Assembly: GCA_007376295.1 (NCBI GenBank)
Contig: VMGB01000002.1
Coordinates: 2,843-66,842 of the forward strand
DNA from: Parcubacteria group bacterium Gr01-1014_13
GTDB lineage: Bacteria > Patescibacteriota > Patescibacteriia > Magasanikbacterales > GWA2-37-8
Reading direction: 5' to 3'
Length of the DNA stretch: 64,000 nucleotides
This document shows positions 1,448-44,255 of this stretch, piece after piece (within the stretch, counting starts at the first letter, position 1; each line of letters begins with the position of its first letter). Position numbers and translations under genes: made by a program. The notes under the pieces were generated by a model. The model saw nothing but the letters and a program-made list of their open reading frames with translations, was not told the DNA's origin and did no database searches.

Positions 1448-1615
1448 ATTATTGTTTAAATATTTTAAAGGCAGTGTTTAAATTATACCATGTCTTATAT
1501 TTTCAAGCAAAGTGAACAGAGCAAGTGTTTATACACAGGTTTTTGACAATTTTAAATTAATAAATTATAATGAGTATGTTTCTCAGAGAAACAGAATGTT
1601 TCATAAGAAACTTAT

Positions 1616-1993
1616 GTGTTAGAAACAATTCCGCTCCTACCCCTACCATCATATGACTTCATTGCCGGTCTATTAACTAGTACCGGATCTTTTCTTTGGG
1701 TAAAACAAAAAAACTCAGAGGTACCGGTTTTTCAGCTCAAAATGCAAGCTGGGGATCATGAGCTACTTGAACTTGTCAAATCCAAGTTAAGAATTAAAGA
1801 AAGTATACACCAATATATACATCAAGGCCGTAACTACTCACTTTTGCTCATCAGAAGCAGAAAAACAATTGAAACTATACTTATACCTATCTTTGATGGG
1901 CGGTTATTTGGACAAAAACAGGTTCAATTTGATTTATGGAAAAAGAAATACTTTGAGAAGAAACTTGATTTTGTGTATAAAAAGCATTCTTAA
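1616..1993 (+). CDS. LAGLIDADG-like homing-endonuclease fold protein, probably catalytically degenerate
   Basis: The N-terminal FIAGLLTSTGSF matches the LAGLIDADG-x-F block, but the conserved acidic residues are replaced by Thr. It is about 125 aa, like the single-motif family, and is free-standing rather than inside an intron. Confidence 0.35.
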   Translation: MLETIPLLPLPSYDFIAGLLTSTGSFLWVKQKNSEVPVFQLKMQAGDHELLELVKSKLRIKESIHQYIHQGRNYSLLLIRSRKTIETILIPIFDGRLFGQKQVQFDLWKKKYFEKKLDFVYKKHS

Positions 1994-2140
1994 ATATATA
2001 AATGTTCCGTGTGAAACATTTATCTCAAAAAATGCCTTATACACTGGATAAATTGAGTTATTTGTATACTCTAGTCTATACAATTGTGCACTTAACCACC
2101 CATTTATACACAGAGTTATCCACTTTTATAAACACCCAGA

Positions 2141-5926: not shown

Positions 5927-6882
5927 GCTAGCTTCCCTACAAACAAATCAATCAGCAAAGACTGGTCCGCAAGACCGGTCTTTGTTTTTATATCAATTTC
6001 GAGTAACTGGTTATATATATCTTTTAATTTATCTAAAGAATATTTTTTTATAAACGGCAAACTTTTTTTCACCACAAACGGATGCAGATCCAACATTTTG
6101 GCCATGGTGTCACTAGTAATATTTTCCTGGCGATTAAATAAATCGCGCATGGAAATTAATATTCTAAATTGTCGCAGTGCCATTCCAAAAATCAAACCGT
6201 CTTCTTCACCCAAACGCCGCTGTTCTTCTATAAGCTTAAAAGCTAATTTGCGATTACCAACTACAATTGCATCCACCATGTTAAAAATATTGTCATCAAC
6301 TTTTTCTTCCAAAAAAAGTTGCACATCAGCCAAAGAAATTTCTTTTCCTTCGGCATAGGCTATCAGTTGATCAATTAATGAATCCGCATACCAAATATCT
6401 TTACCAACATTTTGCGTTAGATACGCTATAGCAGCCGGATTTATACTTCCTCCGCGCTGCTCTGCTTCAGTTTTTATCCAACCACTCAATTGCGCGCCAA
6501 CTAAATTAATAAATTCTTTGGCCCATTTTTCTTTGGCCAATAATTTTTGTAGTTCTTGAACCAATTTGGATTTACCCATTGATTCACTTTGATAAAATAC
6601 CACGATATTTTTTTCTGGAATCTTTTTTATTCCTTCTACCAATGATTCTAATACATCTGTATCTTTGGTAGACAAAATATTTTGTACCACAATCATTTTT
6701 TTCTCTGCTAAAAATGGCGTGGCCGTAATTTCATTCCAAAGCTGACTACTTTCTACTTTTTGGCCATCTAAAAAAACTACGTTCATCCCTTGAGGATCAC
6801 GTTCTTTTTTAAAGCGTTCTACGTTTTGACTCAAAAAATCCCGGCTTCGAAATGTGTCTTCGCCGTATATATAGATGATCAT
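5923..6882 (-). CDS. holA: DNA polymerase III delta subunit
   Basis: 319 aa. The N-terminus MIIYIYGEDTF is the delta-subunit hallmark, and the helical C-terminus matches. Confidence 0.75.
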   Translation of the reverse strand: MIIYIYGEDTFRSRDFLSQNVERFKKERDPQGMNVVFLDGQKVESSQLWNEITATPFLAEKKMIVVQNILSTKDTDVLESLVEGIKKIPEKNIVVFYQSESMGKSKLVQELQKLLAKEKWAKEFINLVGAQLSGWIKTEAEQRGGSINPAAIAYLTQNVGKDIWYADSLIDQLIAYAEGKEISLADVQLFLEEKVDDNIFNMVDAIVVGNRKLAFKLIEEQRRLGEEDGLIFGMALRQFRILISMRDLFNRQENITSDTMAKMLDLHPFVVKKSLPFIKKYSLDKLKDIYNQLLEIDIKTKTGLADQSLLIDLFVGKLA

Positions 6883-7901
6883 ACTAATGCTCTTTTAATC
6901 ATAAATTCCACTTCCGAATTTGTATTAATATATGTTATTTTTTTATCCGGATGAGAATTTTGATAAGCTCTAAAAATCTCATCAACAAATCCTTGACCCA
7001 CCATCTCTACTCTATCGAAATCCAAAACGATTTCTTTAAACTCATTCAAACCGGCTAACAAACGTCTGGCTTGCGAGCGAGAAATAAAACTGGTATCCAA
7101 GGTATAAAGTTTCACTTTTATTTCGGTCTTGGTAAAACCATGCTCTACTCCGGCAAAATGCGCAAAAATATTTGCCAATTTCTTATTTGTATTTATGTTA
7201 ATCTTAAAAAAAACTTTCGTGCCTCGTTTGTGGCGATGCGGACGGACAAAAATATCATTGATTATATTTTCTATAATCAATTCCGTTTTTTCACTGGCCA
7301 AAGAAAAGACGTCGGCAGCTTTGGAAGTAAAGAAAATACCTTCGCCGGAATGAAACTCGCGCGCCGTAGTTTGTTTGCCTTTAAGCAGATCCTGTATGGC
7401 CTCATGTTCATTTTTCAAATGGCGGCTTCTCATGATTTTGTTAAATATGCCCACGCCAAAATCATCTACAACAAACTCTATGGCATTTTCCGCCTTCTTA
7501 AATTCCACAATAATTTGCCGCGAACCGGAGTGATCAATGGCATTATTCAACATTTCCGTAAAAGCGTATTCCAAAATATTGACCGTTTGTTCAGGAATGT
7601 CTTTAAAAAAATCGGAATTGTATTTTATATCTTTAAAAACTTCATCCTCGTTCAAATCTTTATTTTGCAATTGCTTGCGCCAAACCAACCCTTCCAATCG
7701 AAAAGCTTCTTCGGTATAAGCGATATAACGCACCTGATTTGTTCGGCCAAGGCGCATTATTTTTTTTTGATTAATAACCTCTCTTAAAATTCGGTTAACA
7801 TAGGCTCTGCTAAAACCAGTTAAACCAACCAAATCGGCTATGCTAGCCTCTTTTTTGGTGTTTATAAATTTTATTATTTTTTCTTTAATACCTGGCGCCA
7901 T
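6879..7901 (-). CDS. HTH domain - GHKL ATPase (HATPase_c) - DUF4325/STAS-like protein
   Basis: N-terminal wHTH (ADLVGLTGFSRAYVNRILREV). N-box EMLNNAIDHS and G-box VDDFGVGI of GHKL ATPases. C-terminal IVLDFDRVEMVGQGFVDEIF matches the DUF4325 STAS-like module. Confidence 0.6.
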   Translation of the reverse strand: MAPGIKEKIIKFINTKKEASIADLVGLTGFSRAYVNRILREVINQKKIMRLGRTNQVRYIAYTEEAFRLEGLVWRKQLQNKDLNEDEVFKDIKYNSDFFKDIPEQTVNILEYAFTEMLNNAIDHSGSRQIIVEFKKAENAIEFVVDDFGVGIFNKIMRSRHLKNEHEAIQDLLKGKQTTAREFHSGEGIFFTSKAADVFSLASEKTELIIENIINDIFVRPHRHKRGTKVFFKININTNKKLANIFAHFAGVEHGFTKTEIKVKLYTLDTSFISRSQARRLLAGLNEFKEIVLDFDRVEMVGQGFVDEIFRAYQNSHPDKKITYINTNSEVEFMIKRALV

Positions 7902-7955
7902 AAGGCAAATTTTTAAATAAGGGATTTAATGCCTTTATTATAACATAATTACATA

Positions 7956-8027
7956 AACTTGTCAACTAGTTATTAAAACTTGTATACTAACTTATCAACT
8001 AAATTTATTAACTTGTATACTAACTTA
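7956..8027. repeat. iteron-like direct repeats (about 16-18 bp units, AACTTGTATACTAACTTA x2 exact plus 2 variants) in the divergent intergenic region
   Basis: Exact 18-bp copies at 7977..7994 and 8010..8027. Variants at 7956..7972 and 7990..8008. Each contains a GTATAC core. Confidence 0.6.
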
Positions 8028-8129
8028 GATACAAAGGGTGGTTAGGGCGGCATAAGCAAACGGACCCTTTTTGAATATTTACAAAATCAAACTAACAATA
8101 TAATATATTTCTACCCCAAAAGGAGCCAA

Positions 8130-29128: not shown

Positions 29129-29524
29129 CTATGCTTTTAAAACTTTCCCGCGGCTTAACAATAACTTCAATTCTGCGCTAATCTCTGCATAATTTTTATC
29201 CAAAACTTCCTTTTTTGCCACTATTAAAACATAAAAACCAATTTTTAATAGATTATCCTTAATTAGAAGCCGGATGGCTTCCCTGATCTGCCGGCGCACC
29301 CGATTCCGCTTTACAGCGCTTTTATGCACCTTTAAACCGGCTGCAATGGCTAACTTTAGCTGTTTTTTGAAACTTTCCGGATCTTCTTTTTTGGGAAAAA
29401 AGTTTTGATTCTTGGCTAACTCTAATACTTTGATATCCAAAAACCGGCCATTTACCCATTGGCCATGCTTCATTACCAAGTTAAAGTCTCTTAATTTCCT
29501 TAGTCGGTTGTCTTGCTGTAACAT
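29129..29524 (-). CDS. rnpA: ribonuclease P protein component
   Basis: Basic 131-aa protein with AVKRNRVRRQIREAIR. Located between rpmH and yidD, the classic order. Confidence 0.85.
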   Translation of the reverse strand: MLQQDNRLRKLRDFNLVMKHGQWVNGRFLDIKVLELAKNQNFFPKKEDPESFKKQLKLAIAAGLKVHKSAVKRNRVRRQIREAIRLLIKDNLLKIGFYVLIVAKKEVLDKNYAEISAELKLLLSRGKVLKA

Positions 29525-29984: not shown

Positions 29985-31379
29985 ATGTCCAACCACGAAA
30001 TATGGCAAGCTGTTCTGGCAGAGCTAGAATTGTCTATTTCTAAACCAAATTTTGTAACTTGGTTTAAAAATACTGACATAATCTCCTACCAAGATGGCTG
30101 TGCTGTCGTGTGTGTTCCCAATGAATTTAATCGTGCCTGGATGGAAAAAAAATACAATCAAATGATTGTTAAATCTCTGGAGAGAGTAACCGGAAAACCG
30201 ATAAAAAAACTTGAGTATAAAATCTGTAGTATTAAAAATATCCCTGCTCAACAACCGGTTAGTCAACAGGAAAACAAAGTTGAAGAATTTTCCACTATTT
30301 CTACAAGTTCTGCTCCAAGTGAAGCAGCCGTTCCGCCGCGAATAGGTGAATTTGGTTTAAATCAAAAATATGTTTTTGAAACTTTTGTAGTTGGCGGCGG
30401 TTCCGAACTAGCTTATGCTGCCGCTCAAGCGGTGGTAAACAAACCCGGCGAAGCTTACAACCCGTTATTTATCTATGGCGGTGTCGGATTAGGTAAAACT
30501 CATCTTATCCAAGCTATTGGTAATCATATTTTAGCTGTCCGGCCCCAAACCAGTATCATGTATGCTAGCGCCGAGAAGTTTACCAACGACTATATCTCTT
30601 CAATGCGCGATGGTAGCGCTAAAAATTTTCAAAACAGATACCGCAACATCGATGTTTTACTTATCGACGACATTCAATTCATTTCTGGTAAAGAAAAAAG
30701 CCAGGAATCTTTCTTCCATACCTTCAATGACTTACACCAACAGAACAAGCAGGTGGTAATGACCTCTGACAGGCCACCAAAAGCCATTCCTGCCCTAGAA
30801 GACCGCTTAAAATCACGTTTTGAGTGGGGTATGATTGTAGATGTGGCTCCACCAGACCTAGAGACACGCATCGCTATTTTACAAAAAAAGTGTCTAGAAA
30901 AGAGTTTTGCTCTGGCCCAAAACATTTTACAAGTAGTAGCCGCCACCTTCCAACGAAACATCCGTGAATTAGAAGGTGCGTTAAACAAAATTATCGCTTT
31001 CCACCAACTAAAGGCTATGGAACCGACTCTAGAATCGGTAAAATCACTTCTTTCTAGTTTAGAAGTACGATCTATCCACCGTTCAGTCACACCCCAACAG
31101 ATTATAGATGCGGCTAGTCAGTTCTACGCGATAAATATTTCCGACCTACTTGGCCAAAGCAGAGAAAAAAAGTTCTCCTTCCCTCGCCAAATCATTATGC
31201 ACTTGATGAGAAAAGAACTTAGTATGTCTTATCCAGCCATCGGCAACGAACTTGGCGGCCGAGATCACACCACAGCTATGCACGCTGATAATAAAATAAC
31301 TCGTGAATCAGAAAATGATTTGAAATTGAAACAAGAAATAGAGTTAATAAAACAAAAATTGTATATAAACATGATGTAA
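29985..31379 (+). CDS. dnaA: chromosomal replication initiator DnaA
   Basis: 464 aa. AAA+ domain with GGVGLGKTHL Walker A. C-terminal DNA-binding helix. Confidence 0.95.
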   Translation: MSNHEIWQAVLAELELSISKPNFVTWFKNTDIISYQDGCAVVCVPNEFNRAWMEKKYNQMIVKSLERVTGKPIKKLEYKICSIKNIPAQQPVSQQENKVEEFSTISTSSAPSEAAVPPRIGEFGLNQKYVFETFVVGGGSELAYAAAQAVVNKPGEAYNPLFIYGGVGLGKTHLIQAIGNHILAVRPQTSIMYASAEKFTNDYISSMRDGSAKNFQNRYRNIDVLLIDDIQFISGKEKSQESFFHTFNDLHQQNKQVVMTSDRPPKAIPALEDRLKSRFEWGMIVDVAPPDLETRIAILQKKCLEKSFALAQNILQVVAATFQRNIRELEGALNKIIAFHQLKAMEPTLESVKSLLSSLEVRSIHRSVTPQQIIDAASQFYAINISDLLGQSREKKFSFPRQIIMHLMRKELSMSYPAIGNELGGRDHTTAMHADNKITRESENDLKLKQEIELIKQKLYINMM

Positions 31380-31660
31380 AAAGTTAACAACCTGGGGATA
31401 ACAAATGTATAAGTGTAAAAATTTATTAACTTTTCACACACTTACGAGATAAGTTATAAACACCAACTGAAAAAATAAATTTCTTTCCACACACTTTATA
31501 GATTTATCCTCAACAAGTTTTGCACTGATAAAAAAATAAAAAACGTTTAGATTACAGTAAAAAAATAGTTTTACCACCTTATCCACTCCATTATAGTTAC
31601 GATTATAATTTATAAATAAATATTTAGACAATATAACGATGCAAATAAAATGAATAAAAA
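31380..31660. promoter_or_regulatory. candidate oriC: AT-rich dnaA-dnaN spacer with at least 5 DnaA-box-like 9-mers and an A/T-rich unwinding tract
   Basis: Box matches: TTATCCCCA (reverse, 31393), TTATAAACA (31453), CTTTCCACA (31484), TTATCCTCA (31504), TTATCCACT (31578). An AT-run lies at 31530..31575. Confidence 0.5.
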
Positions 31661-31690
31661 ACCCGCTGGTTGGCGGGTAAGGTAACAAAT
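31660..31690 (-). terminator. intrinsic terminator of the GC-rich gene C
   Basis: CCCGCCAACCAGCGGG hairpin plus T-tract on the minus strand. Confidence 0.6.
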
Positions 31691-31707
31691 AACTAAATTG
31701 TGTGCTG

Positions 31708-32004
31708 CTAGCGGTGACGACCGTTGTTGACTCGCCAGTAGCTGGCGCCGCGACTCTCACGACGCAGATCGCCGTCGCGGAGCCTGGCATCCTTGCGGAG
31801 GCCGACGGTGCGCGGGGAGGTCTGAGGATTGAACTCCCTCAGGTAGATACCCCGTTCGGAGACGTCTTCCACGATGTTGTGGAAGTGGTCGTCCTCGATG
31901 TCTTCAATGAGCTTGAGGGTATGGTCGGGGATCCAGCGGAAGCGACGGTTGACCTGGAAGTTGCCTTCGGGGTCGGCGGACGCGATCATCGTATCCTGCA
32001 GCAT
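31708..32004 (-). CDS. GC-rich (about 60%, GC3-biased) foreign-looking gene for a 98-aa hydrophilic protein, inserted between dnaA and dnaN
   Basis: Codon usage (CTG/GAC/ATC/GCG) unlike the host. RBS AGGAAGG. Host-type consensus promoter and terminator. Confidence 0.55.
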   Translation of the reverse strand: MLQDTMIASADPEGNFQVNRRFRWIPDHTLKLIEDIEDDHFHNIVEDVSERGIYLREFNPQTSPRTVGLRKDARLRDGDLRRESRGASYWRVNNGRHR

Positions 32005-32056
32005 CTAGAGATCCTTCCTGTAAAAGTGTGGTTTTTAGCCAAAATGGCTGGAGCAG

Positions 32057-32107: not shown

Positions 32108-33229
32108 ATGAAATTCTTTTGTACTAGAGAAAACCTATCTAAAGCCTTAGCGCTAGTAATCGGTATAGCTGGAAAAAGCATTAATTTGCCTATACTTAGC
32201 AATGTTTTGATCCGGGCTAGTGAACAAAAAGTGGAATTTATTGCCACCAACCTGGAATTGGCTATAGTTTCCAATTTACGGGCTAAAATAGAAGAACCAG
32301 GGATGTTTACTGTCCCAGCCAGAACGCTAAACGACTTTGTAAACCTGCTTTCTGATGAAAAAGTAGAATTAAGACTAAAGGATAATGAGTTAGAGGTGGT
32401 TAGTGGTAAGTCGGCTACAAAGATAAAAGGTACTCCAGCAGATGAGTTTCCGGTTGTGCCGGTAGTTGGAGAGGGTAAAGGATATTTAATCGATGCAGAG
32501 GCCTTTAAAAGAGGTTTAGGACAGGTATCACAGGCTGCGGCCAAGACCGAGATTCGTCCAGAGTTGGCTGGAGTACTGTTTTGTTTTAATGATGAACCAA
32601 ACACTCTTACTATGGCCGCCACAGACAGTTATCGTTTGGCTGAAAAAAAGATAAAACTATTACAAGGTGAAGAAAAGGCGAGAATAATAATCCCTGCCCG
32701 TACAGCGCAGGAGATAAATCATATCCTATCTTTGTCAAAGGGTATGGAAAATGAAAAAAATGTCCGTTTACTAGTTACTGATAGTCAGGTAGTACTACGC
32801 TGTAACGAGGTGGAGTTAGTTTCTCGGTTGGTAGAGGGGCAATATCCGGATTATACCCAGATTATTCCAAAAGAATTCAAAACAGTGGCCGAATTTTCAA
32901 CAAATCAAATTACTAAAGAGATAAAAGCGGCTAGTTTGTTTACTACGACCGGTGTAAATGCGGTGAATTTTGATTTTGACACTGCCGCTGGCGCTATTTT
33001 AATCTCTTCTACATCTACCCAGACCGGCGAACACAAATCTGAAGTTACGTCGGATATTAAAGGAGATAAAAATAATATATTACTCAACCATAGATATGTT
33101 TTGGATGGTTTAGCAAATATCGATACGGAAAACTCTTTATTGAAAGTGATTAACGCAGACAGTCCTTGTGTTTTTGCGCCGAAGGAAGATAAAAATTTCG
33201 TTTATATTGTGATGCCGATTCGGCAGTAG
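32108..33229 (+). CDS. dnaN: DNA polymerase III beta sliding clamp
   Basis: 373 aa, three-domain clamp. MKFFCTRENLSKAL N-terminus. Follows dnaA. Confidence 0.95.
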   Translation: MKFFCTRENLSKALALVIGIAGKSINLPILSNVLIRASEQKVEFIATNLELAIVSNLRAKIEEPGMFTVPARTLNDFVNLLSDEKVELRLKDNELEVVSGKSATKIKGTPADEFPVVPVVGEGKGYLIDAEAFKRGLGQVSQAAAKTEIRPELAGVLFCFNDEPNTLTMAATDSYRLAEKKIKLLQGEEKARIIIPARTAQEINHILSLSKGMENEKNVRLLVTDSQVVLRCNEVELVSRLVEGQYPDYTQIIPKEFKTVAEFSTNQITKEIKAASLFTTTGVNAVNFDFDTAAGAILISSTSTQTGEHKSEVTSDIKGDKNNILLNHRYVLDGLANIDTENSLLKVINADSPCVFAPKEDKNFVYIVMPIRQ

Positions 33230-39359: not shown

Positions 39360-39752
39360 TTAAACCTCTTGGGTAATAGTTTTTTTGCAACTCATGCAAG
39401 AGCTGGAAGTCAGTCTGGCGAGCAATCTTTTTTCTTCAATTGGTTTGTGGCAATACTTGCAGATGCCATAGTCGCCTTTTTCCATTCTGGCCAAGGATTG
39501 ATTGGTATCACGTAAGGATTTTTCTAAATTTTCTTCCAAAGAAAGATTTACCACATAGTCGGCCACTTCGGCAGCGTTTTCATCTTCTTTATCGCCGTAG
39601 TCAGGGAAAGTAGTATCAAAATCATCACCAGAGTTGGATTTTTTTTTGGCAAACTTAGCCAATTCTTTTTCGAGTTTGGTTTTTTCTTCCAAAAGCAAAG
39701 CTTTTACTTTCTTTAGGAAATCAGCTGAATAGGGTAATTTTGTCTTGCTCAT
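39360..39752 (-). CDS. DksA/TraR family C4 zinc-finger protein
   Basis: Coiled-coil N-terminus. C-terminal CKYCHKPI...SSSCMSCK four-Cys finger. Confidence 0.8.
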   Translation of the reverse strand: MSKTKLPYSADFLKKVKALLLEEKTKLEKELAKFAKKKSNSGDDFDTTFPDYGDKEDENAAEVADYVVNLSLEENLEKSLRDTNQSLARMEKGDYGICKYCHKPIEEKRLLARLTSSSCMSCKKTITQEV

Positions 39753-39861
39753 AAGGGCAGGGGTTCTATTTTAGAAAAAATAAAGCAGTCGGAGCGACTG
39801 TTTTTACTGTCTGTGAGTATTTTATCAGTGAGCTGCACGGTTGTCAATAACAGCAACTGTA

Positions 39862-40212
39862 AGCAAATTAATTATAAAAGGCGATCACCTTCTACCTCAA
39901 TTTTTAAATTGATACAGAAGGCGGATCGCCTTTGAAGATATTACTAAGGGGAGGTACTTTCTCCCTCTTAAGGAGAACTTGTACGCTACCTACCTCTGGT
40001 AATATTGAAATTTTGACCCTAACCGCTTGTGGGTAGAGCCCCAGTGTTAAAGTGACCCGAGGGTATTTAACTAATTTAGGGTTACCCGGGAAGAAGTTGG
40101 GCACGCCATTGCTTTTTTTCTATGTAAAGCAGTTGTTTGCCCAGTTCTAAATTGCAGTTTATAGGTCATTTGTATACAGAAGTGTATACATTTGAATTGT
40201 AGAATGAACTAC
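39862..40212 (-). ncRNA. candidate structured ncRNA of about 340 nt (unit E), unclassified
   Basis: Perfect TTGACA-17-TATAAT promoter at 40219..40247 on the minus strand. A 17-bp-stem terminator hairpin at 39877..39934 is followed by a U-rich tract. Multiple internal hairpins. The only ORF (GTG start, no RBS, Pro-rich) is unconvincing. Confidence 0.4.
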
Positions 40213-40374
40213 AAAGATATTATAGCATTTTTTTCACCCTTTGTCAACTATTTGTATACACTAGTATATACAAATATATTTTAGCTGTAATTAGCTAAAA
40301 TTTCCACAGTTTATCCACATTCCCTATAGGTTATACCCAAAGTTATCCACAGTTGTATACACTAGTGTATACAA
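40171..40374. promoter_or_regulatory. regulatory hub: three paired palindromic TGTATACA operators (40171..40190, 40253..40272, 40353..40374) and two perfect DnaA boxes TTATCCACA (40311..40319, 40343..40351) plus weaker boxes
   Basis: Each operator is two self-complementary 8-mers separated by 4 nt (TTGTATACActagTGTATACAA is a perfect 22-bp palindrome). The boxes lie in the same orientation between divergent promoters. Confidence 0.6.
40219..40247 (-). promoter_or_regulatory. perfect consensus promoter TTGACA-17-TATAAT for unit E
   Basis: Minus-strand TTGACA 40242..40247, TATAAT 40219..40224. Confidence 0.6.
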
Positions 40375-40399
40375 ATTTTAATTTTTTTAAATTAACAAC

Positions 40400-40428
40400 T
40401 TGACAAAACACCTGTTTCATCATATATT
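40400..40428 (+). promoter_or_regulatory. promoter TTGACA-17-TATATT for the 40445 gene
   Basis: Followed by RBS GGAGG and an ATG. Confidence 0.55.
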
Positions 40429-40444
40429 CTGTTTGGAGGTTACA

Positions 40445-40921
40445 ATGAACGTACCCCGGATAAAATCAGTCGACCAAGCAACTATTGGGTTAGTCAGTCT
40501 CATCAAAGAGGCAGTCGGCCCAAAAAACATCTACAATATCCACGAGAATTTCTTTTCCAAGCAGTTCAGGAAAAAGGGTATCCTAATGGGTGGGAAGCCA
40601 CTCATTGCGCCATTTTTGGATGGTGAGACTGGCTATGGAGCCCTGAATCGTCTGGCTGCTCATTATACAGGTAAAAATTTCGAATTCTCAAATACATTTA
40701 GCTTGGCTCGGTACATGATTGATAATTCGGCTGAAGTTAGTAAATTTGCCGGAGTTTTGGCTATGAGCGGGGACTCCCTGTGGGTATCGCCGGATAGCCA
40801 TGCTTACTACGCTCCATATGCTTTTGCGAGTGGCGATAGGCGTCGAAGCTTTAGCTTTTATGAGCTTGGTGCTAAGTTCAGTTCTAGGCAAGGGATACTC
40901 CTTTTTGGTCCTAGCGCCTAA
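40445..40921 (+). CDS. hypothetical protein, paralog 1 (..SGDSLWVSPDSHAYYAPYA..)
   Basis: Internal Met with RBS GGAGG. Shares an S-x-D-S-x-W-x-x-P-D block with 41063..41662. Confidence 0.5.
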   Translation: MNVPRIKSVDQATIGLVSLIKEAVGPKNIYNIHENFFSKQFRKKGILMGGKPLIAPFLDGETGYGALNRLAAHYTGKNFEFSNTFSLARYMIDNSAEVSKFAGVLAMSGDSLWVSPDSHAYYAPYAFASGDRRRSFSFYELGAKFSSRQGILLFGPSA

Positions 40922-40945
40922 AAAGGTGGTTAGTAAGGAGTAGAT

Positions 40946-40970
40946 GGGGTTCCACAAGGACCCCTTTTTT
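40946..40970 (+). terminator. intrinsic terminator
   Basis: GGGGTTCCACAAGGACCCC plus T6. Confidence 0.65.
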
Positions 40971-40972
40971 AA

Positions 40973-41001
40973 TTGACAAAACCTTTTATCCACTATATAT
41001 T
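40973..41001 (+). promoter_or_regulatory. promoter TTGACA-17-TATATT containing a DnaA-box-like TTTTATCCAC in its spacer
   Basis: Immediately after the terminator. Drives 41063..41662. Confidence 0.5.
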
Positions 41002-41062
41002 TGTATTTACAATTGACGCTAAAAACATCCAGTTTTGGGATAGTGCGTCTAGGAGGAAAAAC

Positions 41063-41662
41063 GTGGAGAATACAGAGGATAAGAATAATCTCAATCGTGG
41101 GTTTTTGGTTTCCTATGATCAGTCAATGGACATTCAAGAGTTGATGAAACTATCCCTGAATGTGCTAAATAGTAGAAACATCAACTATGATATTACCCAA
41201 GAGCATTTTGACAAACTCTCGGGAGTTGGTATTCGGACAGTGAGTTTGCGGGTAGAGCCGTACCTTTTGATTGAAACAAGCGCACAGGCTGTCCTGCGAC
41301 TAGTAGCCGCGGGTCACACTTTGGCAAACCTGAAGGATCTGGCGGCCTTTATTCGTAGTTATCCCGAGGAAGCAAAAAAGTGGTGGTGGATATTTGCGCT
41401 CAGTGAGGACTCTTGGTGGGCATACCCTGATAATACTAGAGTGGTATATGCCAATATGCAGGGTTGGCTTGGTTACACTCATTGGGGTTTACGCGACCAG
41501 GTCAGTTCGTCAAAATCTGATCTAAACGGAATTCTTGTGTTGGCGGAATCCGACGAGGTATTGGAAGCAAAACGAATTCTTGCTTCAGCTCCCGTGCTGA
41601 AGAAGGGAGACAAAGTAGATCTAGATCAGCTGCAGAAAGATATTAGTAAGTTGGGAACTTAA
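41063..41662 (+). CDS. hypothetical protein, paralog 2 (..SEDSWWAYPDNTRVVYANMQG..), GTG start
   Basis: RBS AGGAGG 6 nt before an in-frame GTG. Trp-rich. Confidence 0.45.
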   Translation: MENTEDKNNLNRGFLVSYDQSMDIQELMKLSLNVLNSRNINYDITQEHFDKLSGVGIRTVSLRVEPYLLIETSAQAVLRLVAAGHTLANLKDLAAFIRSYPEEAKKWWWIFALSEDSWWAYPDNTRVVYANMQGWLGYTHWGLRDQVSSSKSDLNGILVLAESDEVLEAKRILASAPVLKKGDKVDLDQLQKDISKLGT

Positions 41663-41764
41663 ACCACACCCCTCAAATTCGCATCGCGGTTTGGGGGTTT
41701 TATATTTTTGACTTGTGTATCGGGGGTGATATAATTCAAAAGGCTAATTTTTACCTTAATTTGT

Positions 41765-43198
41765 ATGCGTCATATCCCTTTGGCTTTAACTTACGACGAT
41801 GTTTTAATTATTCCAAAAAGATCCACACTTTTTTCCCGAAGCGAAGCAATTACCAAAACTCGACTCACCAAAAAAGTTAATTTAAATATTCCGATTGTTA
41901 GTTCCAATATGGATACGGTCAGTGAATCAGAAATGGCGATTGCTATGGCGCGATTGGGTGGAATTAGTATCATCCACCGGTTCATGACTATCGAAGAAAA
42001 TGCCGAAGAAATTAAAAGAGTAAAACGCGCGCAGAATTTTATTGTTCCCGATCCGTATACTATTGATGTAAACAAAACAGTTGGCGAAGCAAAAAGATTT
42101 ATTGCCGCTCACGGGGTGAGCGGGCTACTCGTTACTAGTGGCGATCGCCGACTTCGCGGCATACTTTCTAAACGTGATTTTGTTTTTGTAAAAGATGATA
42201 ATCAGTTTGTGGAACAAGTGATGACTCCGAGAGAAAAATTAATTGTTGGCGGCAGAAATACAAATTTTGTGGAAGCTAAGGAAAAAATGATGATGTATAA
42301 AATAGAAAAGTTGCCTCTAGTGGATGAAAATGATTTTATTATCGGACTAATTACGGCAGATGATATTAAAAATTTAACTGAATACCCATTAGCCAATATT
42401 GATTCTTCCGGCCGGTTGATTGTCGGTGGTTCAGTAGGCGTGCATGGTGATTATTTAGAACGAGCGCAAGAATTGGTGAAAGCCGGAGCAGATGTGCTCG
42501 TGGTAGATATTGCGCATGGCCATTCAGAAATGATGTTTAATGCTTTAAAAAATTTACGAGATAAATGTGGTGACGCGCAAGTTATTGCTGGCAATGTTGC
42601 CACAGCTGATGGCGCCAGAGAATTATGTGAAGCCGGAGTAGATGCAATAAAAGTTGGCGTCGGGCCAGGTACGATTTGTATTACCAGATTAGTTACCGGT
42701 TGTGGTGTACCGCAACTCACTGCGGTAATGGAAGCCGCAGATATGGCTAAAAAATATGGCGTGCCGGTGATTGCTGATGGTGGTATTCAAAAATCAGGAG
42801 ATATAGTAAAGGCTTTGGGCGCGGGTGCAGACAGTGTGATGCTGGGCGGATTATTGGCCGGTACCAAAGAAAGTCCGGGGGTAATAATGTCGCGCGGCGA
42901 TAAAAAATATAAAGTATGTCGAGGCAGCGCCAGTTTTGCCGTGGCTCAGCGTCGCCAAGCTGTACAGCAGGAAAATAAAAATTTAAGCGAAGTTGTTCCC
43001 GAAGGCGTGGAATCGGTAGTGCCATACAAAGGGCCAGTGGCAGATTTGGTAGGCCAATTGGTGGGCGGTTTGAAGTCGGGAATGAGTTATACAAATTCAC
43101 ACACAATTGCAGAACTACAAAATAATACGGACTTCGTACAAATTACTTCTGCGGGTTCTCGCGAAAGCGGGGCGCATGATTTGATAGATGTGAAATAG
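41765..43198 (+). CDS. guaB: inosine-5'-monophosphate dehydrogenase
   Basis: 477 aa TIM barrel with a CBS pair. [18 protein letters not shown] catalytic-Cys loop. [18 protein letters not shown]. Confidence 0.95.
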
Positions 43199-43274
43199 AT
43201 TGACAAAATCATACTTCTGTATTTAAATTGAATGAACAATTCAGCGAATTTTTCGTTGGAAAAAAATAGGAGGC

Positions 43275-44255
43275 ATGCTCATGGCCGAAGACGTTACAGC
43301 ATTTGTGGAAAGAGTTGGATTGACCGATGCGCTAGAAATTTTGGGCGAGGATGTTTGGAAATACACCAAATTTTCTTTTGAACAGTGGGCTGAAGAGCAC
43401 AACCCTTGTATGTATGATCAGGCGCTAAAGGCAAAGGTCTTGGCCAAAATGGTGGAGATCGCTTCTGTTACTGAGCATTGGCTCAAGATTTGGCATCTGG
43501 CACCGGCTGATAGTGTGGAGCACAGGTTGGTCATTGAAAAAATAAAAGAGAGGCTCAATTTGTTAACCACCTTTGAAGAAGTTCAGAAGTGGCAGCCGTT
43601 TGATTTTCGCCTGGATTTTCAGGGAAAGAACAAAAAGCTAAACACGCTTTGGCTGCAGAGATTAGCAGAGGTGGCGATAGGCTTTGAACAGTGGAAAGCT
43701 GTTTTTTACGAAGCAAATAATTTGCCGACAAAAAATAGCGACGTGTCTGATTTGGCTTTGGCAAATATGGTGGGGAATGCCACAAACGGCAGACGCTGGC
43801 TGGAAGTTTATCATGCTGCTCAAGACGGTAGCTTTGCGCAAAAGAAAGCGCTTGATTATTTCTTCAATCAAGCCAAGACGTATGACGATTGGTTTGATGT
43901 TTGGTATAGAGCCAGAAATAAAGATGAAAATATGGCAAAGCTGGCGCTGGCCAAAGCAGTTCGTAGCGCCGAAACTTTTTCACAGTGGCATCAGTTATTC
44001 TCGCACCACAAAGACAACCAAACACTTCGTGATCTTTGTCTAGAAAAACTTGTGCCTCGGGCCAAAACCTTTTACGATTGGCTATGTGTTTATCAGGCAA
44101 GCGAAGGCCAGGCAAAGCTGGACGCTTTGGAGCAATTGTTGACCAAACCAGAAAATGTAGGTGACTGGCTACATATTTGGCATCATACCCCCGAAGACAG
44201 CAAAGCCAAAGCCAGGGCATTGCACTGGCTGCAAAGTTTCGTCATTAGAGATTAG
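43275..44255 (+). CDS. Trp-rich internal-repeat protein (WLxIWHxxPxDS repeats), hypothetical
   Basis: At least four repeats of about 40 aa (WLKIWHLAPADS ... WLHIWHHTPEDS). Confidence 0.5.
   Translation: MLMAEDVTAFVERVGLTDALEILGEDVWKYTKFSFEQWAEEHNPCMYDQALKAKVLAKMVEIASVTEHWLKIWHLAPADSVEHRLVIEKIKERLNLLTTFEEVQKWQPFDFRLDFQGKNKKLNTLWLQRLAEVAIGFEQWKAVFYEANNLPTKNSDVSDLALANMVGNATNGRRWLEVYHAAQDGSFAQKKALDYFFNQAKTYDDWFDVWYRARNKDENMAKLALAKAVRSAETFSQWHQLFSHHKDNQTLRDLCLEKLVPRAKTFYDWLCVYQASEGQAKLDALEQLLTKPENVGDWLHIWHHTPEDSKAKARALHWLQSFVIRD

What the first reader, a model, noticed from the sequence alone, without database searches (positions are those of the whole stretch)
39862..40440. A ~340 nt structured RNA transcribed divergently from a control region packed with perfect DnaA boxes and palindromic TGTATACA operators
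A textbook TTGACA-17-TATAAT promoter (40219..40247, minus strand) drives a transcript that ends about 340 nt later. It terminates at an unusually strong hairpin (17-bp stem, 39877..39934) followed by a U-rich tract, and the body contains several further stable hairpins. The only ORF inside (GTG start, no RBS, Pro-rich) is unconvincing, so this looks like a dedicated ncRNA. Its 5' region and upstream flank carry three operator sites, each made of two self-complementary TGTATACA octamers spaced by 4 nt (one is a perfect 22-bp palindrome, TTGTATACActagTGTATACAA). Between the divergent promoters sit two perfect DnaA boxes (TTATCCACA at 40311 and 40343) plus weaker ones, all in one orientation. The plus-strand promoter on the other side (40400..40428) drives two paralogous hypothetical proteins; the second gene's own promoter again embeds a DnaA-box-like TTTTATCCAC. 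This is a dense, composite regulatory node, possibly DnaA- or cell-cycle-coupled, controlling an unknown RNA and an unknown protein pair. It lies about 9 kb from dnaA.
Basis: seen in the sequence. Interest (0 to 1): 0.8.

Follow-up and report, generated by a model that had tools for sequence, protein, structure and literature searches.

The report
Conserved DnaA-box-linked structured RNA gene
This is a real, previously undescribed ~340-nt highly structured non-coding RNA gene of Magasanikbacteria (candidate phyla radiation), and it matters because its consensus promoter sits behind a fixed array of DnaA boxes and 24-bp palindromic operators near the replication origin, which suggests its production is tied to the replication initiator.

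Summary
On the minus strand a perfect TTGACA-17-TATAAT promoter (40247..40219) precedes a ~340-nt ORF-free transcript (about 40212..39872). It ends in a 24-bp hairpin followed by a U-tract.

Homologous loci from about 60 related genomes and metagenome contigs keep the promoter, the RNA and the upstream sites. A hand-built model of the 155-nt core (49 base pairs, three-way junction) is 90% paired in 31 sequences. Compensatory changes occur at 43 of 49 pairs, against 16-18 in slid controls. No Rfam family, tmRNA or tRNA model matches, and no ORF is conserved.

The "octamer pairs" are really one 24-bp dyad, TTTGTATAnACT|AGTnTATACAAA. O1 abuts three co-oriented DnaA boxes at fixed spacing (0, +12, +32). 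O2 lies at or upstream of the -35 hexamer. "O3" is RNA hairpin P2 and is specific to this lineage.

The divergent paralogous proteins are a lineage-specific insertion, not part of the conserved node. The conserved neighbour is a dksA-like gene downstream.

More distant CPR lineages keep DnaA boxes, a promoter, a ~400-nt RNA and dksA, but lack the dyad.

Best reading: an independent structured RNA gene whose transcription is gated by DnaA and an unidentified palindrome-binding protein. The RNA's own function is unknown.

The parts
40352..40375 (.). Operator O1: 24-bp dyad GTTGTATACACT|AGTGTATACAAA, directly abutting DnaA box 1
   Evidence: 1 mismatch to the family consensus TTTGTATAnACTAGTnTATACAAA. 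Present at this position in all Magasanik-type loci.
40343..40351 (+). DnaA box 1, TTATCCACA (perfect); it reads TGTGGATAA in the RNA-sense direction
   Evidence: Perfect in 21 of 22 relatives that were fetched independently of this motif.
40331..40339 (+). DnaA box 2, TTATACCCA (2 mismatches), 12 bp from box 1
   Evidence: Conserved position with consensus tGtGtATAA, 1-2 mismatches in most of 54 loci.
40311..40319 (+). DnaA box 3, TTATCCACA (perfect), 32 bp from box 1
   Evidence: At most 1 mismatch in 34 of 54 loci, at the same spacing.
40279..40302 (.). Palindrome TTTTAGCT-N6-AGCTAAAA (GCTAA/TTAGC type) between the DnaA boxes and O2
   Evidence: Both arms change together compared with relatives that carry TTTTGGCT-N6-AGCCAAAA. 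Similar palindromes occur upstream of the -35 hexamer in 49 of 85 loci, including distant CPR groups.
40251..40274 (.). Operator O2: perfect match to the 24-bp dyad, ending 3 bp before the -35 hexamer
   Evidence: 0 mismatches. Every locus has an O2, either abutting the -35 hexamer or 72-98 bp upstream of it.
40219..40247 (-). Promoter TTGACA-17-TATAAT with TG extension; the transcription start is inferred at about 40212
   Evidence: 12 of 12 matches. At least 11 of 12 in essentially all of about 60 homologous loci.
39870..40212 (-). The ~340-nt structured non-coding RNA gene (the 3' end is approximate)
   Evidence: Fold z = -8.35. nhmmer E-values from 1e-42 to 1e-81 in 15 species. No conserved ORF. 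No Rfam or ARAGORN match.
40199..40212 (-). P1: 5'-terminal hairpin GUAG-N6-CUAC
   Evidence: Predicted in 13 of 13 homologues, with covarying variants GUGA/UCAC and GUAGAG/CUCUAC.
40169..40192 (-).
   Evidence: A hairpin is present in 13 of 13 homologues with completely different stem sequences. As DNA it has 4 mismatches to the dyad. Dyad-like sites inside the transcribed region recur at other positions in other lineages.
40015..40169 (-). Core domain: three-way junction with closing helices P3/P4, arm P5a-d and arm P6-P9. It holds the invariant stretches GCCCAACUUCUUC and CAAGCGGUU.
   Evidence: With 31 sequences: 49 pairs, 89.8% paired against 37-45% when slid, and 43 pairs with compensatory change. 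The covariance-model hit in the window scores 149.5 bits and is the only copy.
39938..40005 (-). 3' domain: long irregular hairpin P10-P13
   Evidence: 13 pairs with compensatory change in 13 sequences; 93% paired against 42-55% when slid.
39870..39933 (-). Terminator: 24-bp hairpin (39933..39877) plus U-rich tract
   Evidence: The lower stem AAAGGCGAUC/GAUCGCCUUU is invariant in close relatives. In distant relatives it is replaced by other complementary sequences.
39360..39752 (-). dksA/traR-type zinc-finger gene. It is the conserved downstream neighbour, a separate unit with its own promoter (39847..39819) and leader hairpin (39800..39786).
   Evidence: Pfam zf-dskA_traR. It lies downstream of the RNA in 31 of 32 assessable loci that were retrieved without reference to it. 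Foreign genes are inserted between the RNA and the dksA promoter in L016, L014 and L006.
2061..2084 (.). A fourth dyad site elsewhere in the window (2 mismatches), next to DnaA-like boxes at 2104 and 2116

Best explanation
The region is an independent gene for a ~340-nt, highly structured, non-coding RNA on the minus strand, about 40212..39872.

Architecture:
- two 5' hairpins (P1, P2)
- a 155-nt three-way-junction core
- a long 3' hairpin domain
- a long terminator hairpin

Transcription starts at a consensus sigma-70-type promoter. Conserved DNA sites upstream control that promoter's output. First, an array of three co-oriented DnaA boxes has fixed spacing and is presumably bound by DnaA. 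Second, there are 24-bp dyads (O1 abutting box 1, O2 at the -35 hexamer, and here a weaker O3 at +22). An unidentified dimeric or tetrameric DNA-binding protein presumably binds these dyads, and may loop O1 to O2 around the DnaA boxes. A third GCTAA/TTAGC palindrome lies between them.

The inferred consequence is that the amount of RNA follows the state of the replication initiator. The RNA most likely acts in trans, probably as a protein-binding or scaffold RNA rather than a short-seed antisense RNA. The reason is that its most conserved nucleotides sit in and around a multi-helix junction.

Shown: the gene, its structure, the conservation and geometry of the sites, and its independence from flanking genes.

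Inferred: DnaA binding, repression through the dyads, and action in trans.

Unknown: the RNA's molecular target.
For: RNA and strand:
- Consensus promoter, kept at 11-12 of 12 matches in about 60 loci.
- Fold z = -8.35.
- The RNA and its upstream region are alignable in 15 GTDB species at E = 1e-42 to 1e-81.
- Core structure: 90.9% paired with 16 compensatory pairs in the unfitted MAFFT alignment, against 1-5 when slid. With 19 sequences, 31 of 49 pairs are compensatory. With 31 sequences, 43 of 49 are compensatory and the covariation score is 0.471 against at most 0.103.
- An invariant U.G pair and frequent G.U pairs fit only this strand.
- The 3' domain covaries. P1 and P2 are present in 13 of 13 homologues.
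- No conserved ORF. No known RNA family matches.

Independence from neighbours:
- dksA has its own conserved promoter.
- Unrelated genes are inserted between the terminator and that promoter in L016, L014 and L006.
- The upstream neighbours vary.

Regulatory sites:
- Dyad consensus from 54 O1 and 49 O2 sites.
- Dyad hits in the window: 5 against 0.1 expected.
- Box 1 is perfect in 21 of 22 relatives retrieved without using the motif. The boxes sit at 0, +12 and +32.
- All 41 metagenome contigs that carry O1 plus box 1 are RNA loci. dksA lies downstream in 31 of 32 assessable ones.
- Within the fetched loci of up to 14 kb, dyads cluster within 450 bp at the module, with one exception (L100).
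- None occurs in IMG/VR.

Depth of conservation:
- DnaA boxes, a promoter, a ~400-nt ORF-free RNA and dksA persist in other CPR lineages that lack the dyad.
- The locus lies near dnaA/dnaN in the window (about 9 kb) and in L022, L075, L094, L118, L147 and L155.
Against: - There are no expression data, so the transcription start and the 3' end are predictions.
- DnaA binding is inferred from sequence alone.
- The dyad-binding protein is unidentified. The one candidate tested by comparative genomics did not fit.
- O1-O2 distances (72-135 bp) show no consistent helical phasing, which weakens a simple looping model.
- The tight linkage to dksA over large evolutionary distances could mean a cis or operon-level role.
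- Retrieval bias: GTDB loci were fetched through DksA, and metagenome loci through O1 plus box 1. RNA copies in other contexts would therefore have been missed.
- The covariance-model alignments are fitted to the model. The unfitted alignment shows the same signal, but more weakly.
- Homology between the Magasanik-type RNA and the RNAs of distant CPR groups rests on synteny, layout and short motifs. The R1 model and an nhmmer profile did not reach them.
Confidence: 0.6

Rival explanations
1. The DnaA-box and dyad cluster is mainly a chromosomal element that controls DnaA itself. It could be a titration or DnaA-inactivating/reactivating site like datA, the DARS sites or the B. subtilis DnaA-box clusters, or an auxiliary part of the origin. 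On this view the strong RNA promoter and its transcript serve mainly to modulate occupancy of that element.
For: - The locus is origin-proximal in the window and in several relatives. In L075 it directly follows rpmH-rnpA-yidD next to dnaA.
- The unit O1 plus three boxes keeps its internal geometry, while its distance to the promoter varies from 104 to 326 bp.
- A second dyad with DnaA-like boxes lies between convergent genes at 2061..2124, where no promoter is needed.
Against: - The RNA itself is under strong structural selection. A by-product transcript would not show this.
- The GC-skew minimum places oriC at the dnaA-dnaN spacer, about 31.4-32.1 kb, not at 40.3 kb.
- Three boxes are few compared with known titration clusters (own knowledge).
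- No DnaA-trio or unwinding-element pattern is evident next to the boxes (read from the sequence).
Confidence: 0.15
2. The RNA is a very divergent form, or a functional replacement, of a housekeeping RNA. An RNA-polymerase-binding regulator of the 6S/Ms1 type is the most attractive option because of the conserved pairing with dksA.
For: - The promoter is a consensus, presumably strong one.
- The RNA is conserved in very small genomes across a wide CPR clade.
- It is invariably next to a DksA-type RNA-polymerase secondary-channel factor that carries the acidic-tip motif (and the sequence).
- Group B relatives contain the string GGAUUUCGAC, which resembles the tmRNA 5' region.
Against: - No hit to tmRNA, RNase P, SRP or 6S models even at E up to 10, in the window or in the distant homologue L033. 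There are also no hits at gathering score in 13 loci.
- ARAGORN finds no tmRNA in 22 loci.
- The 5' and 3' ends do not pair. There is no acceptor/T-arm, no P4-type pseudoknot motif and no rod with a central bubble.
- RnpA is present, so a normal RNase P RNA is expected elsewhere in the genome.
Confidence: 0.1
3. The RNA is a cis-acting leader, such as a riboswitch or attenuator, that controls read-through into the dksA-lspA operon.
For: - It has the same orientation as dksA and lies immediately upstream of it in almost every locus.
- A junction-rich core is followed by a terminator, as in many riboswitches.
Against: - A conserved TTGACA-17 promoter lies between the terminator and dksA.
- Insertions of 0.3-2.2 kb of unrelated genes separate the RNA from dksA. 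They leave the RNA with its module and the second promoter with dksA.
- A 70-nt hairpin domain separates the core from a very stable 24-bp terminator, and no alternative pairing is evident.
Confidence: 0.08
4. One reading: one bidirectional control region that co-regulates the RNA and the divergent pair of paralogous hypothetical proteins.
For: - The plus-strand promoter at 40400..40428 lies 25 bp beyond O1.
- The second paralogue's promoter contains TTATCCACT.
Against: - Protein A has no homologues outside this genome in 5.8 billion sequences.
- The pair and IMPDH are present upstream only in this sublineage. The sequence beyond O1 is not conserved.
Confidence: 0.05

Closest known systems
CcnA, the cell-cycle non-coding RNA of Caulobacter crescentus (PMC8959179)
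   Same: - It is a stand-alone ncRNA gene embedded in or next to origin-region DNA that carries DnaA boxes.
- Its promoter is controlled by a cell-cycle DNA-binding regulator, through a CtrA box.
- The RNA is proposed to link replication status to gene expression.
   Different: - CcnA is 182 nt, lies inside Cori itself, contains weak DnaA boxes within the gene, and acts by base-pairing with the ctrA and gcrA 5' UTRs.
- The RNA here is ~340 nt with a complex junction fold and shows no sequence or structural similarity to CcnA.
- It lies 9 kb from oriC, has strong boxes upstream of the promoter, and has no known target.
Orphan structured ncRNAs such as the raiA motif RNA (ModT; PMC11706538) and other large bacterial ncRNAs (OLE, ROOL, GOLLD; own knowledge)
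   Same: - It is an independent transcription unit with its own promoter and terminator.
- It has a multi-helix fold with strong covariation and invariant junction nucleotides.
- It keeps a conserved genomic neighbourhood.
- It was found by comparative genomics before any function was known.
   Different: - No Rfam 15 family matches.
- It is restricted to CPR bacteria.
- It differs in having a conserved, multi-site promoter architecture with DnaA boxes.
DnaA-regulated promoters and DnaA-box clusters (dnaA autoregulation; P. aeruginosa gidAB-parAB, PMC13438810; B. subtilis DnaA-binding intergenic regions, PMC2533591)
   Same: - Closely spaced consensus 9-mers lie upstream of a promoter near the origin.
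- DnaA acts as a transcription factor or is titrated.
   Different: - The regulated product is a structured RNA, not a protein gene.
- The boxes form a fixed unit with a 24-bp palindromic operator. This resembles the antagonism of CtrA, Spo0A or MtrA with DnaA at origins (own knowledge), but it occurs at a promoter.
6S RNA / Ms1 (RNA-polymerase-binding RNAs)
   Same: - It is a presumably abundant structured RNA made from a strong regulated promoter.
- Here it is genetically paired with an RNA-polymerase-binding factor gene (dksA).
   Different: - It lacks the rod-with-central-bubble architecture and has no Rfam 6S hit.
- Binding to RNA polymerase is untested.

Membership tests
tmRNA (Rfam RF00023 and permuted forms) | A tRNA-like domain in which the 5' and 3' ends pair into an acceptor stem with a T-arm and CCA; a tag reading frame; a match to covariance or ARAGORN models | tested here: not met
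   - ARAGORN finds no tmRNA in the window or in 22 homologous loci.
- There is no Rfam hit at E up to 10.
- The ends do not pair.
Bacterial RNase P RNA (RF00010/RF00011) | P4 pseudoknot with conserved GGAAAGUCC and ACAGAA-CCGGCUUA segments; a P1 helix joining the ends; a covariance-model match | tested here: not met
   - There is no hit even at E up to 10, and none at gathering score in 13 loci.
- The motifs are absent from the consensus.
- RnpA is present at 29129..29524, so a normal RNase P RNA is expected elsewhere.
6S RNA (RF00013) and SRP RNA | For 6S: a long closed rod with a central bubble. For SRP: the helix 8 GNRA/AGCA motif. For both: a covariance-model match. | tested here: not met
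   Searches gave no hits. The fold is two hairpins, a three-way junction and two further hairpins.
Structured non-coding RNA gene (general kind) | A conserved secondary structure supported by compensatory base changes, and no conserved reading frame | tested here: met
   - 43 of 49 core pairs show compensatory change in 31 sequences, with 0 of 500 shuffles reaching the observed value and slid controls at 16-18.
- The unfitted alignment gives 16 against 1-5.
- ORFs are not conserved.
Sigma-70-type promoter plus intrinsic terminator unit | -35 and -10 hexamers at 17-bp spacing; a G+C-rich hairpin followed by a U-tract on the same strand | tested here: met
   - 12 of 12 matches in the window, and at least 11 of 12 in about 60 loci.
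- A hairpin plus U-tract is conserved.
- Actual transcription is not testable here.
DnaA box / DnaA-controlled promoter | 9-mers matching TTATCCACA (TTWTNCACA) in a cluster, conserved in orthologous regions; DnaA binding that changes promoter activity | tested here: inconclusive
   - The sequence criteria are met: two perfect boxes and one weak box, at fixed spacing, conserved in 21 of 22 relatives retrieved without using the motif.
- Binding and any regulatory effect cannot be tested with these tools.
Chromosomal origin (oriC) | Sign change of GC skew; DnaA-box cluster with an adjacent AT-rich unwinding element, usually next to dnaA | tested here: not met
   - The cumulative GC-skew minimum is at 30-32 kb.
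- Imperfect boxes and an AT-rich stretch lie in the dnaA-dnaN spacer at 31380..31690.
- Skew is positive on both sides of 40.3 kb.
Riboswitch or cis-regulatory leader | Lies in the 5' UTR of the regulated gene with no promoter in between; the terminator competes with an alternative pairing | tested here: not met
   - A conserved promoter at 39847..39819 lies between the terminator and dksA.
- Foreign genes are inserted between them in L016, L014 and L006.
Mobile-element or phage-borne RNA | Association with integrase, transposase or phage genes; patchy distribution; presence in viral contigs | tested here: not met
   - Synteny is stable: LTD protein, RNA, dksA, lspA, PPIase, PBP1a.
- The dyad is absent from IMG/VR, and only 4 chance-level hits to the 17-mer were found there.

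The most novel reading that the evidence does not exclude
A clade-wide RNA of the candidate phyla radiation forms a regulatory circuit with the replication initiator. It is found in Magasanikbacteria and, in altered form, in Uhr-, Falkow-, Kerfeld- and Veblenbacteria and related lineages. DnaA occupancy of a fixed box array sets the level of a structured RNA. That RNA then acts on the transcription machinery, together with the invariably adjacent DksA-type factor, or acts back on initiation. This would be a new class of cell-cycle RNA in organisms with minimal regulatory repertoires, with a second, lineage-specific layer of control through a 24-bp dyad and an unknown protein.
Probability: 0.2. 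Interest if true: 0.85.

Novelty: new variant of a known kind. Interest (0 to 1): 0.68.

Why it matters
CPR bacteria have tiny genomes, cannot yet be grown alone, and have almost no characterised regulatory RNAs. This locus gives three things.

First, it adds a new structured RNA family with unusually strong covariation support. The family is ready for a full covariance model and for structural work.

Second, it provides one of the clearest sequence-level cases of a non-coding RNA gene hard-wired to DnaA boxes. That makes the link between replication initiation and RNA-based regulation directly testable in vitro with recombinant DnaA.

Third, it defines a 24-bp operator whose binding protein can be sought by DNA affinity or by phylogenetic profiling.

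The conserved pairing with dksA also offers a concrete hypothesis for how these organisms couple growth control to replication.

Tried and rejected
- Known RNA families: Rfam at gathering score on the window and 13 loci, Rfam at E up to 10 on the window region and on L033, and ARAGORN on 23 sources. Nothing was found beyond tRNAs.
- Coding potential: no conserved ORF.
- Protein A as an anchor for homologous loci: it is an orphan.
- oriC at 40.3 kb: rejected by GC skew.
- The wHTH-HATPase-DUF4325 protein (6879..7901) as the dyad binder. It has more than 7,300 homologues across CPR, a far wider spread than the dyad. Upstream regions in four relatives carry AGTTGACAAGTT-type repeats and no dyad. 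The TGTATAC strings at 7981 and 8014 are variants of that other repeat.
- LexA/SOS-box idea for the dyad: no support was obtained.
- Literal literature search for TGTATACA: uninformative.
- Antisense target search with the invariant CCCAACUUCUUCC stretch: only purine-rich chance matches.
- Relation of the ORF inserted in L006 to proteins A and B: none.
As a result, homology to the distant CPR RNAs could not be tested formally. An nhmmer profile did not reach them.
- Literature searches for a prior description in CPR/Patescibacteria: found none.
Full report
**Source and setting**

The window is part of a 159.6-kb metagenome contig. An NCBI source name for the encoded protein attributes it to 'Parcubacteria group bacterium Gr01-1014_13'. 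Its closest relatives in GTDB are annotated as Magasanikbacteria.

dnaA (29985..31379), dnaN (32108..33229) and rnpA (29129..29524) were confirmed by Pfam. Cumulative GC skew has its minimum at 30-32 kb. The dnaA-dnaN spacer holds imperfect DnaA boxes and an AT-rich stretch. oriC is therefore there, about 9 kb from the finding.

**Checking the observation**

- The minus-strand promoter at 40247..40219 is a 12-of-12 TTGACA-17-TATAAT with a TG extension.
- The minus strand from 40212 to 39862 folds to -114 kcal/mol, z = -8.35.
- The RNA ends in a hairpin at 39933..39877 with stems of 10, 8 and 6 bp, followed by a U-rich tract.
- Exact TGTATACA occurs five times in 64 kb, all between 40171 and 40373.
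- The paired pattern gives 7 hits against 0.33 expected by chance.
- Perfect TTATCCACA boxes lie at 40311 and 40343. Only one other perfect copy exists in the window.
- The plus-strand promoter, the two paralogous hypothetical proteins (30% identity) and the TTATCCACT in the second promoter were also confirmed.

**Relatives**

Protein A has no homologue outside this genome, so I used the downstream dksA-type gene to fetch 56 loci from GTDB species representatives.

The whole non-coding region, both the RNA and its upstream sites, aligns in 15 species at nhmmer E-values between 1e-42 and 1e-81, and more weakly in others.

More divergent Magasanik-type loci (L018, L021-L023, L025-L028) keep the same order of parts: dyad, DnaA boxes, second dyad, GCTAA/TTAGC palindromes, TTGACA-17-TATAMT promoter, an RNA of 350-430 nt that starts with a GUAG...CUAC hairpin, a long terminator, then dksA.

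**The RNA is real and structured**

On a plain MAFFT alignment of the 155-nt core from 15 sequences I drew a structure of 49 pairs. It has closing helices P3/P4, one arm P5a-d and one arm P6-P9.
- 90.9% of cells are paired, against about 40% when partners are slid.
- 16 pairs show changes on both sides, against 1-5 in slid controls.

A covariance model built from this alignment finds one copy in the window. It also finds the expected position in further loci, down to E about 1e-3.
- With 19 sequences, 31 of 49 pairs are compensatory.
- With 31 sequences, including metagenome contigs, 43 of 49 are compensatory and 89.8% of cells are paired. The covariation score is 0.471 against at most 0.103 for slid controls, and none of 500 shuffles reaches it.

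These last alignments are fitted to the model, but the unfitted one shows the same pattern.

Further points:
- An invariant U.G pair in P4 and many G.U pairs fit only the minus strand.
- The 3' hairpin domain has 13 pairs with compensatory change.
- P1 and P2 fold in all 13 sequences tested. P2 uses a different stem sequence in nearly every species.
- The terminator's lower stem is invariant among close relatives. In distant ones it is replaced by other complementary sequences.
- ORFs inside the RNA differ in place, frame and length between species.

**It is not a known RNA**

Rfam 15 gives nothing at gathering score in the window or in 13 related loci. It also gives nothing relevant at E up to 10, in the window region or in the distant homologue L033. 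ARAGORN finds no tmRNA.

The ends of the RNA do not pair. It has no acceptor/T-arm, no RNase P P4 motifs, no SRP helix 8 motif and no 6S-like rod. I found no earlier description in the searchable literature.

**The upstream sites**

I compared about 60 loci.

The repeated element is one 24-bp dyad, TTTGTATAnACT|AGTnTATACAAA. Its ACTAGT centre is as conserved as its arms. The inner self-complementary octamers are partly incidental, because position 9 varies.

In the window:

| Site | Coordinates | Mismatches to the dyad |
|---|---|---|
| O2 | 40251..40274 | 0 |
| O1 | 40352..40375 | 1 |
| Further site | 2061..2084 | 2 |
| 'O3' | 40169..40192 | 4 |

O1 always abuts DnaA box 1. Boxes 2 and 3 follow at +12 and +32, all in one orientation. 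Box 1 is perfect in 21 of 22 relatives that were retrieved without using the motif.

O2 either touches the -35 hexamer, as here, or lies 72-98 bp upstream of it. The distance from the O1-box unit to the promoter ranges from 104 to 326 bp.

A GCTAA/TTAGC-type palindrome lies between the boxes and the promoter. In the window both of its arms have changed together relative to close relatives.

'O3' is hairpin P2 of the RNA. Dyad-like sequences inside the transcribed region also occur in other lineages, but at other positions. A downstream site may therefore be gained repeatedly. In this window it coincides with P2.

**Is the module dedicated to the RNA?**

- 41 of these carry the full dyad.
- 21 of the 41 have a covariance-model hit for the RNA core.
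- dksA lies 0.7-1.1 kb or more downstream in 31 of the 32 that have enough sequence.
- The other 79 stretches lack the dyad and the RNA.

Within the fetched loci, dyads cluster at the module with a single exception. The dyad is absent from IMG/VR.

**What belongs to the unit**

The ancestral order is: LTD/PKD/OB-fold protein (divergent), module, RNA, dksA, lspA, PPIase, PBP1a.

IMPDH and the two hypothetical proteins are inserted upstream only in the window's sublineage. The sequence beyond O1 is not conserved.

In L016, L014 and L006, unrelated genes lie between the RNA terminator and dksA. The second promoter and a CAGTC-N5-GACTG hairpin stay with dksA. The RNA with its module is therefore an independent unit, and a cis-leader role is unlikely.

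**Wider distribution**

The loci annotated as Uhr-, Falkow-, Kerfeld- and Veblenbacteria and other Patescibacteria have DksA 43-55% identical to the query. Most of them share this layout:
- two or three co-oriented TGTGGATAA-type boxes 550-750 nt upstream of dksA
- a GCTAA/TTAGC palindrome
- a near-consensus promoter
- an ORF-free stretch of about 400-450 nt containing an AAAACAAAAACAAAA run
- a long terminator
- dksA with its own promoter

They have no 24-bp dyad. Six non-CPR loci lack all of this.

Five such RNAs from one subgroup give 82 predicted pairs, 34 of them with compensatory change.

In intermediate Magasanik-type sequences the A-rich run sits at the tip of the P5 arm.

Homology between these distant RNAs and the window's RNA is plausible from synteny, layout and short shared motifs (ACUG...GGUAAC...CGGU). 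It was not demonstrated formally. The R1 model and an nhmmer profile did not reach them, and a broader model could not be built.

**Interpretation**

The best-supported reading is an independent, probably abundant, structured RNA whose promoter is gated by two inputs. One is DnaA at the box array. The other is an unidentified protein at the dyads, with O2 placed to block the -35 hexamer and O1 placed to interact with DnaA at box 1.

DnaA control appears to be the older feature. The dyad is an addition specific to Magasanikbacteria.

The RNA's own role is unknown. Its invariant junction nucleotides suggest a protein- or ligand-binding fold rather than a simple antisense seed. Its constant pairing with a DksA-type factor, and its position near the origin, point to growth or replication control.

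The closest functional precedent is CcnA of Caulobacter, an origin-located ncRNA under a cell-cycle regulator (PMC8959179). The closest in kind are orphan structured RNAs such as the raiA motif RNA, ModT (listed).

**Limits**

There are no expression or binding data. Locus retrieval was anchored on dksA or on the O1/box 1 junction, so RNA copies in other contexts would have been missed.

Noticed in passing
window 1995-2130 (dyad at 2061-2084): A second composite site lies 38 kb from the RNA locus. It has a good 24-bp dyad (2 mismatches), DnaA-like boxes TTATACACA (2104) and TTATCCACT (2116) spaced 12 bp apart, further box-like strings, and a TGTTCC-N4-GAAACA palindrome (2003-2018). It sits between convergent genes. 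L100 (11760-11960) has a similar pairing of dyads with TGTTCC-N4-GGAACA palindromes next to tRNA-Ala(cgc).
   Followed up: partly
window 1520-1993: A LAGLIDADG_1 endonuclease-like ORF (1616-1993, GTG start) lies behind a consensus TTGACA-17-TATAAT promoter (1545-1573). A TTATACACA box precedes the promoter. A dyad-like string lies inside the ORF at 1802-1821.
   Followed up: partly
window 31690-32010: About 320 bp of markedly G+C-rich DNA sits inside the AT-rich dnaA-dnaN spacer, the presumed oriC. It carries open reading frames on both strands. It may be foreign DNA or an assembly artefact.
   Followed up: no
window 39786-39847: Between the RNA terminator and dksA there is a conserved TTGACA-17 promoter. 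It is followed by an invariant CAGTC-N5-GACTG hairpin with a T-run, and in relatives by a further -10-like TATATAAT. This could be an attenuator, a very small RNA or a protein-binding site.
   Followed up: partly
window 7940-8035; L180 2390-2470; L181 1165-1235; L183 2020-2095: The upstream region of the wHTH-HATPase_c_2-DUF4325 gene (6879-7901) carries repeated AGT(T/A)(G/T)A(C/T)AAGTT motifs, based on the palindrome AACTTGTCAAGTT. These motifs are also found upstream of its homologues. This is probably the operator of that very widespread CPR regulator family (more than 7,300 homologues).
   Followed up: partly
window 40445-44255; L016 3766-5880; L014 2190-2925; L006 5210-5990: Both flanks of the RNA gene are insertion hot spots. 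Different lineages carry IMPDH, orphan proteins, C92 peptidases or a 607-aa ORF immediately upstream or downstream of it.
   Followed up: partly
L033 5040-5110, L036, L040 and other group B loci: The distant CPR versions of the RNA contain CUACUGUCCGGAUUUCGACC...GGCCGAGG followed by an A-rich run. This superficially resembles the 5' part of tmRNA, yet neither Infernal nor ARAGORN reports a tmRNA there.
   Followed up: partly
L075 1240-2480 (read in the orientation where dksA is on the + strand): In this relative the RNA locus directly follows rpmH-rnpA-yidD, which lie next to a divergent dnaA. The RNA therefore lies about 1.2 kb from the dnaA upstream region, which has its own DnaA boxes.
   Followed up: no
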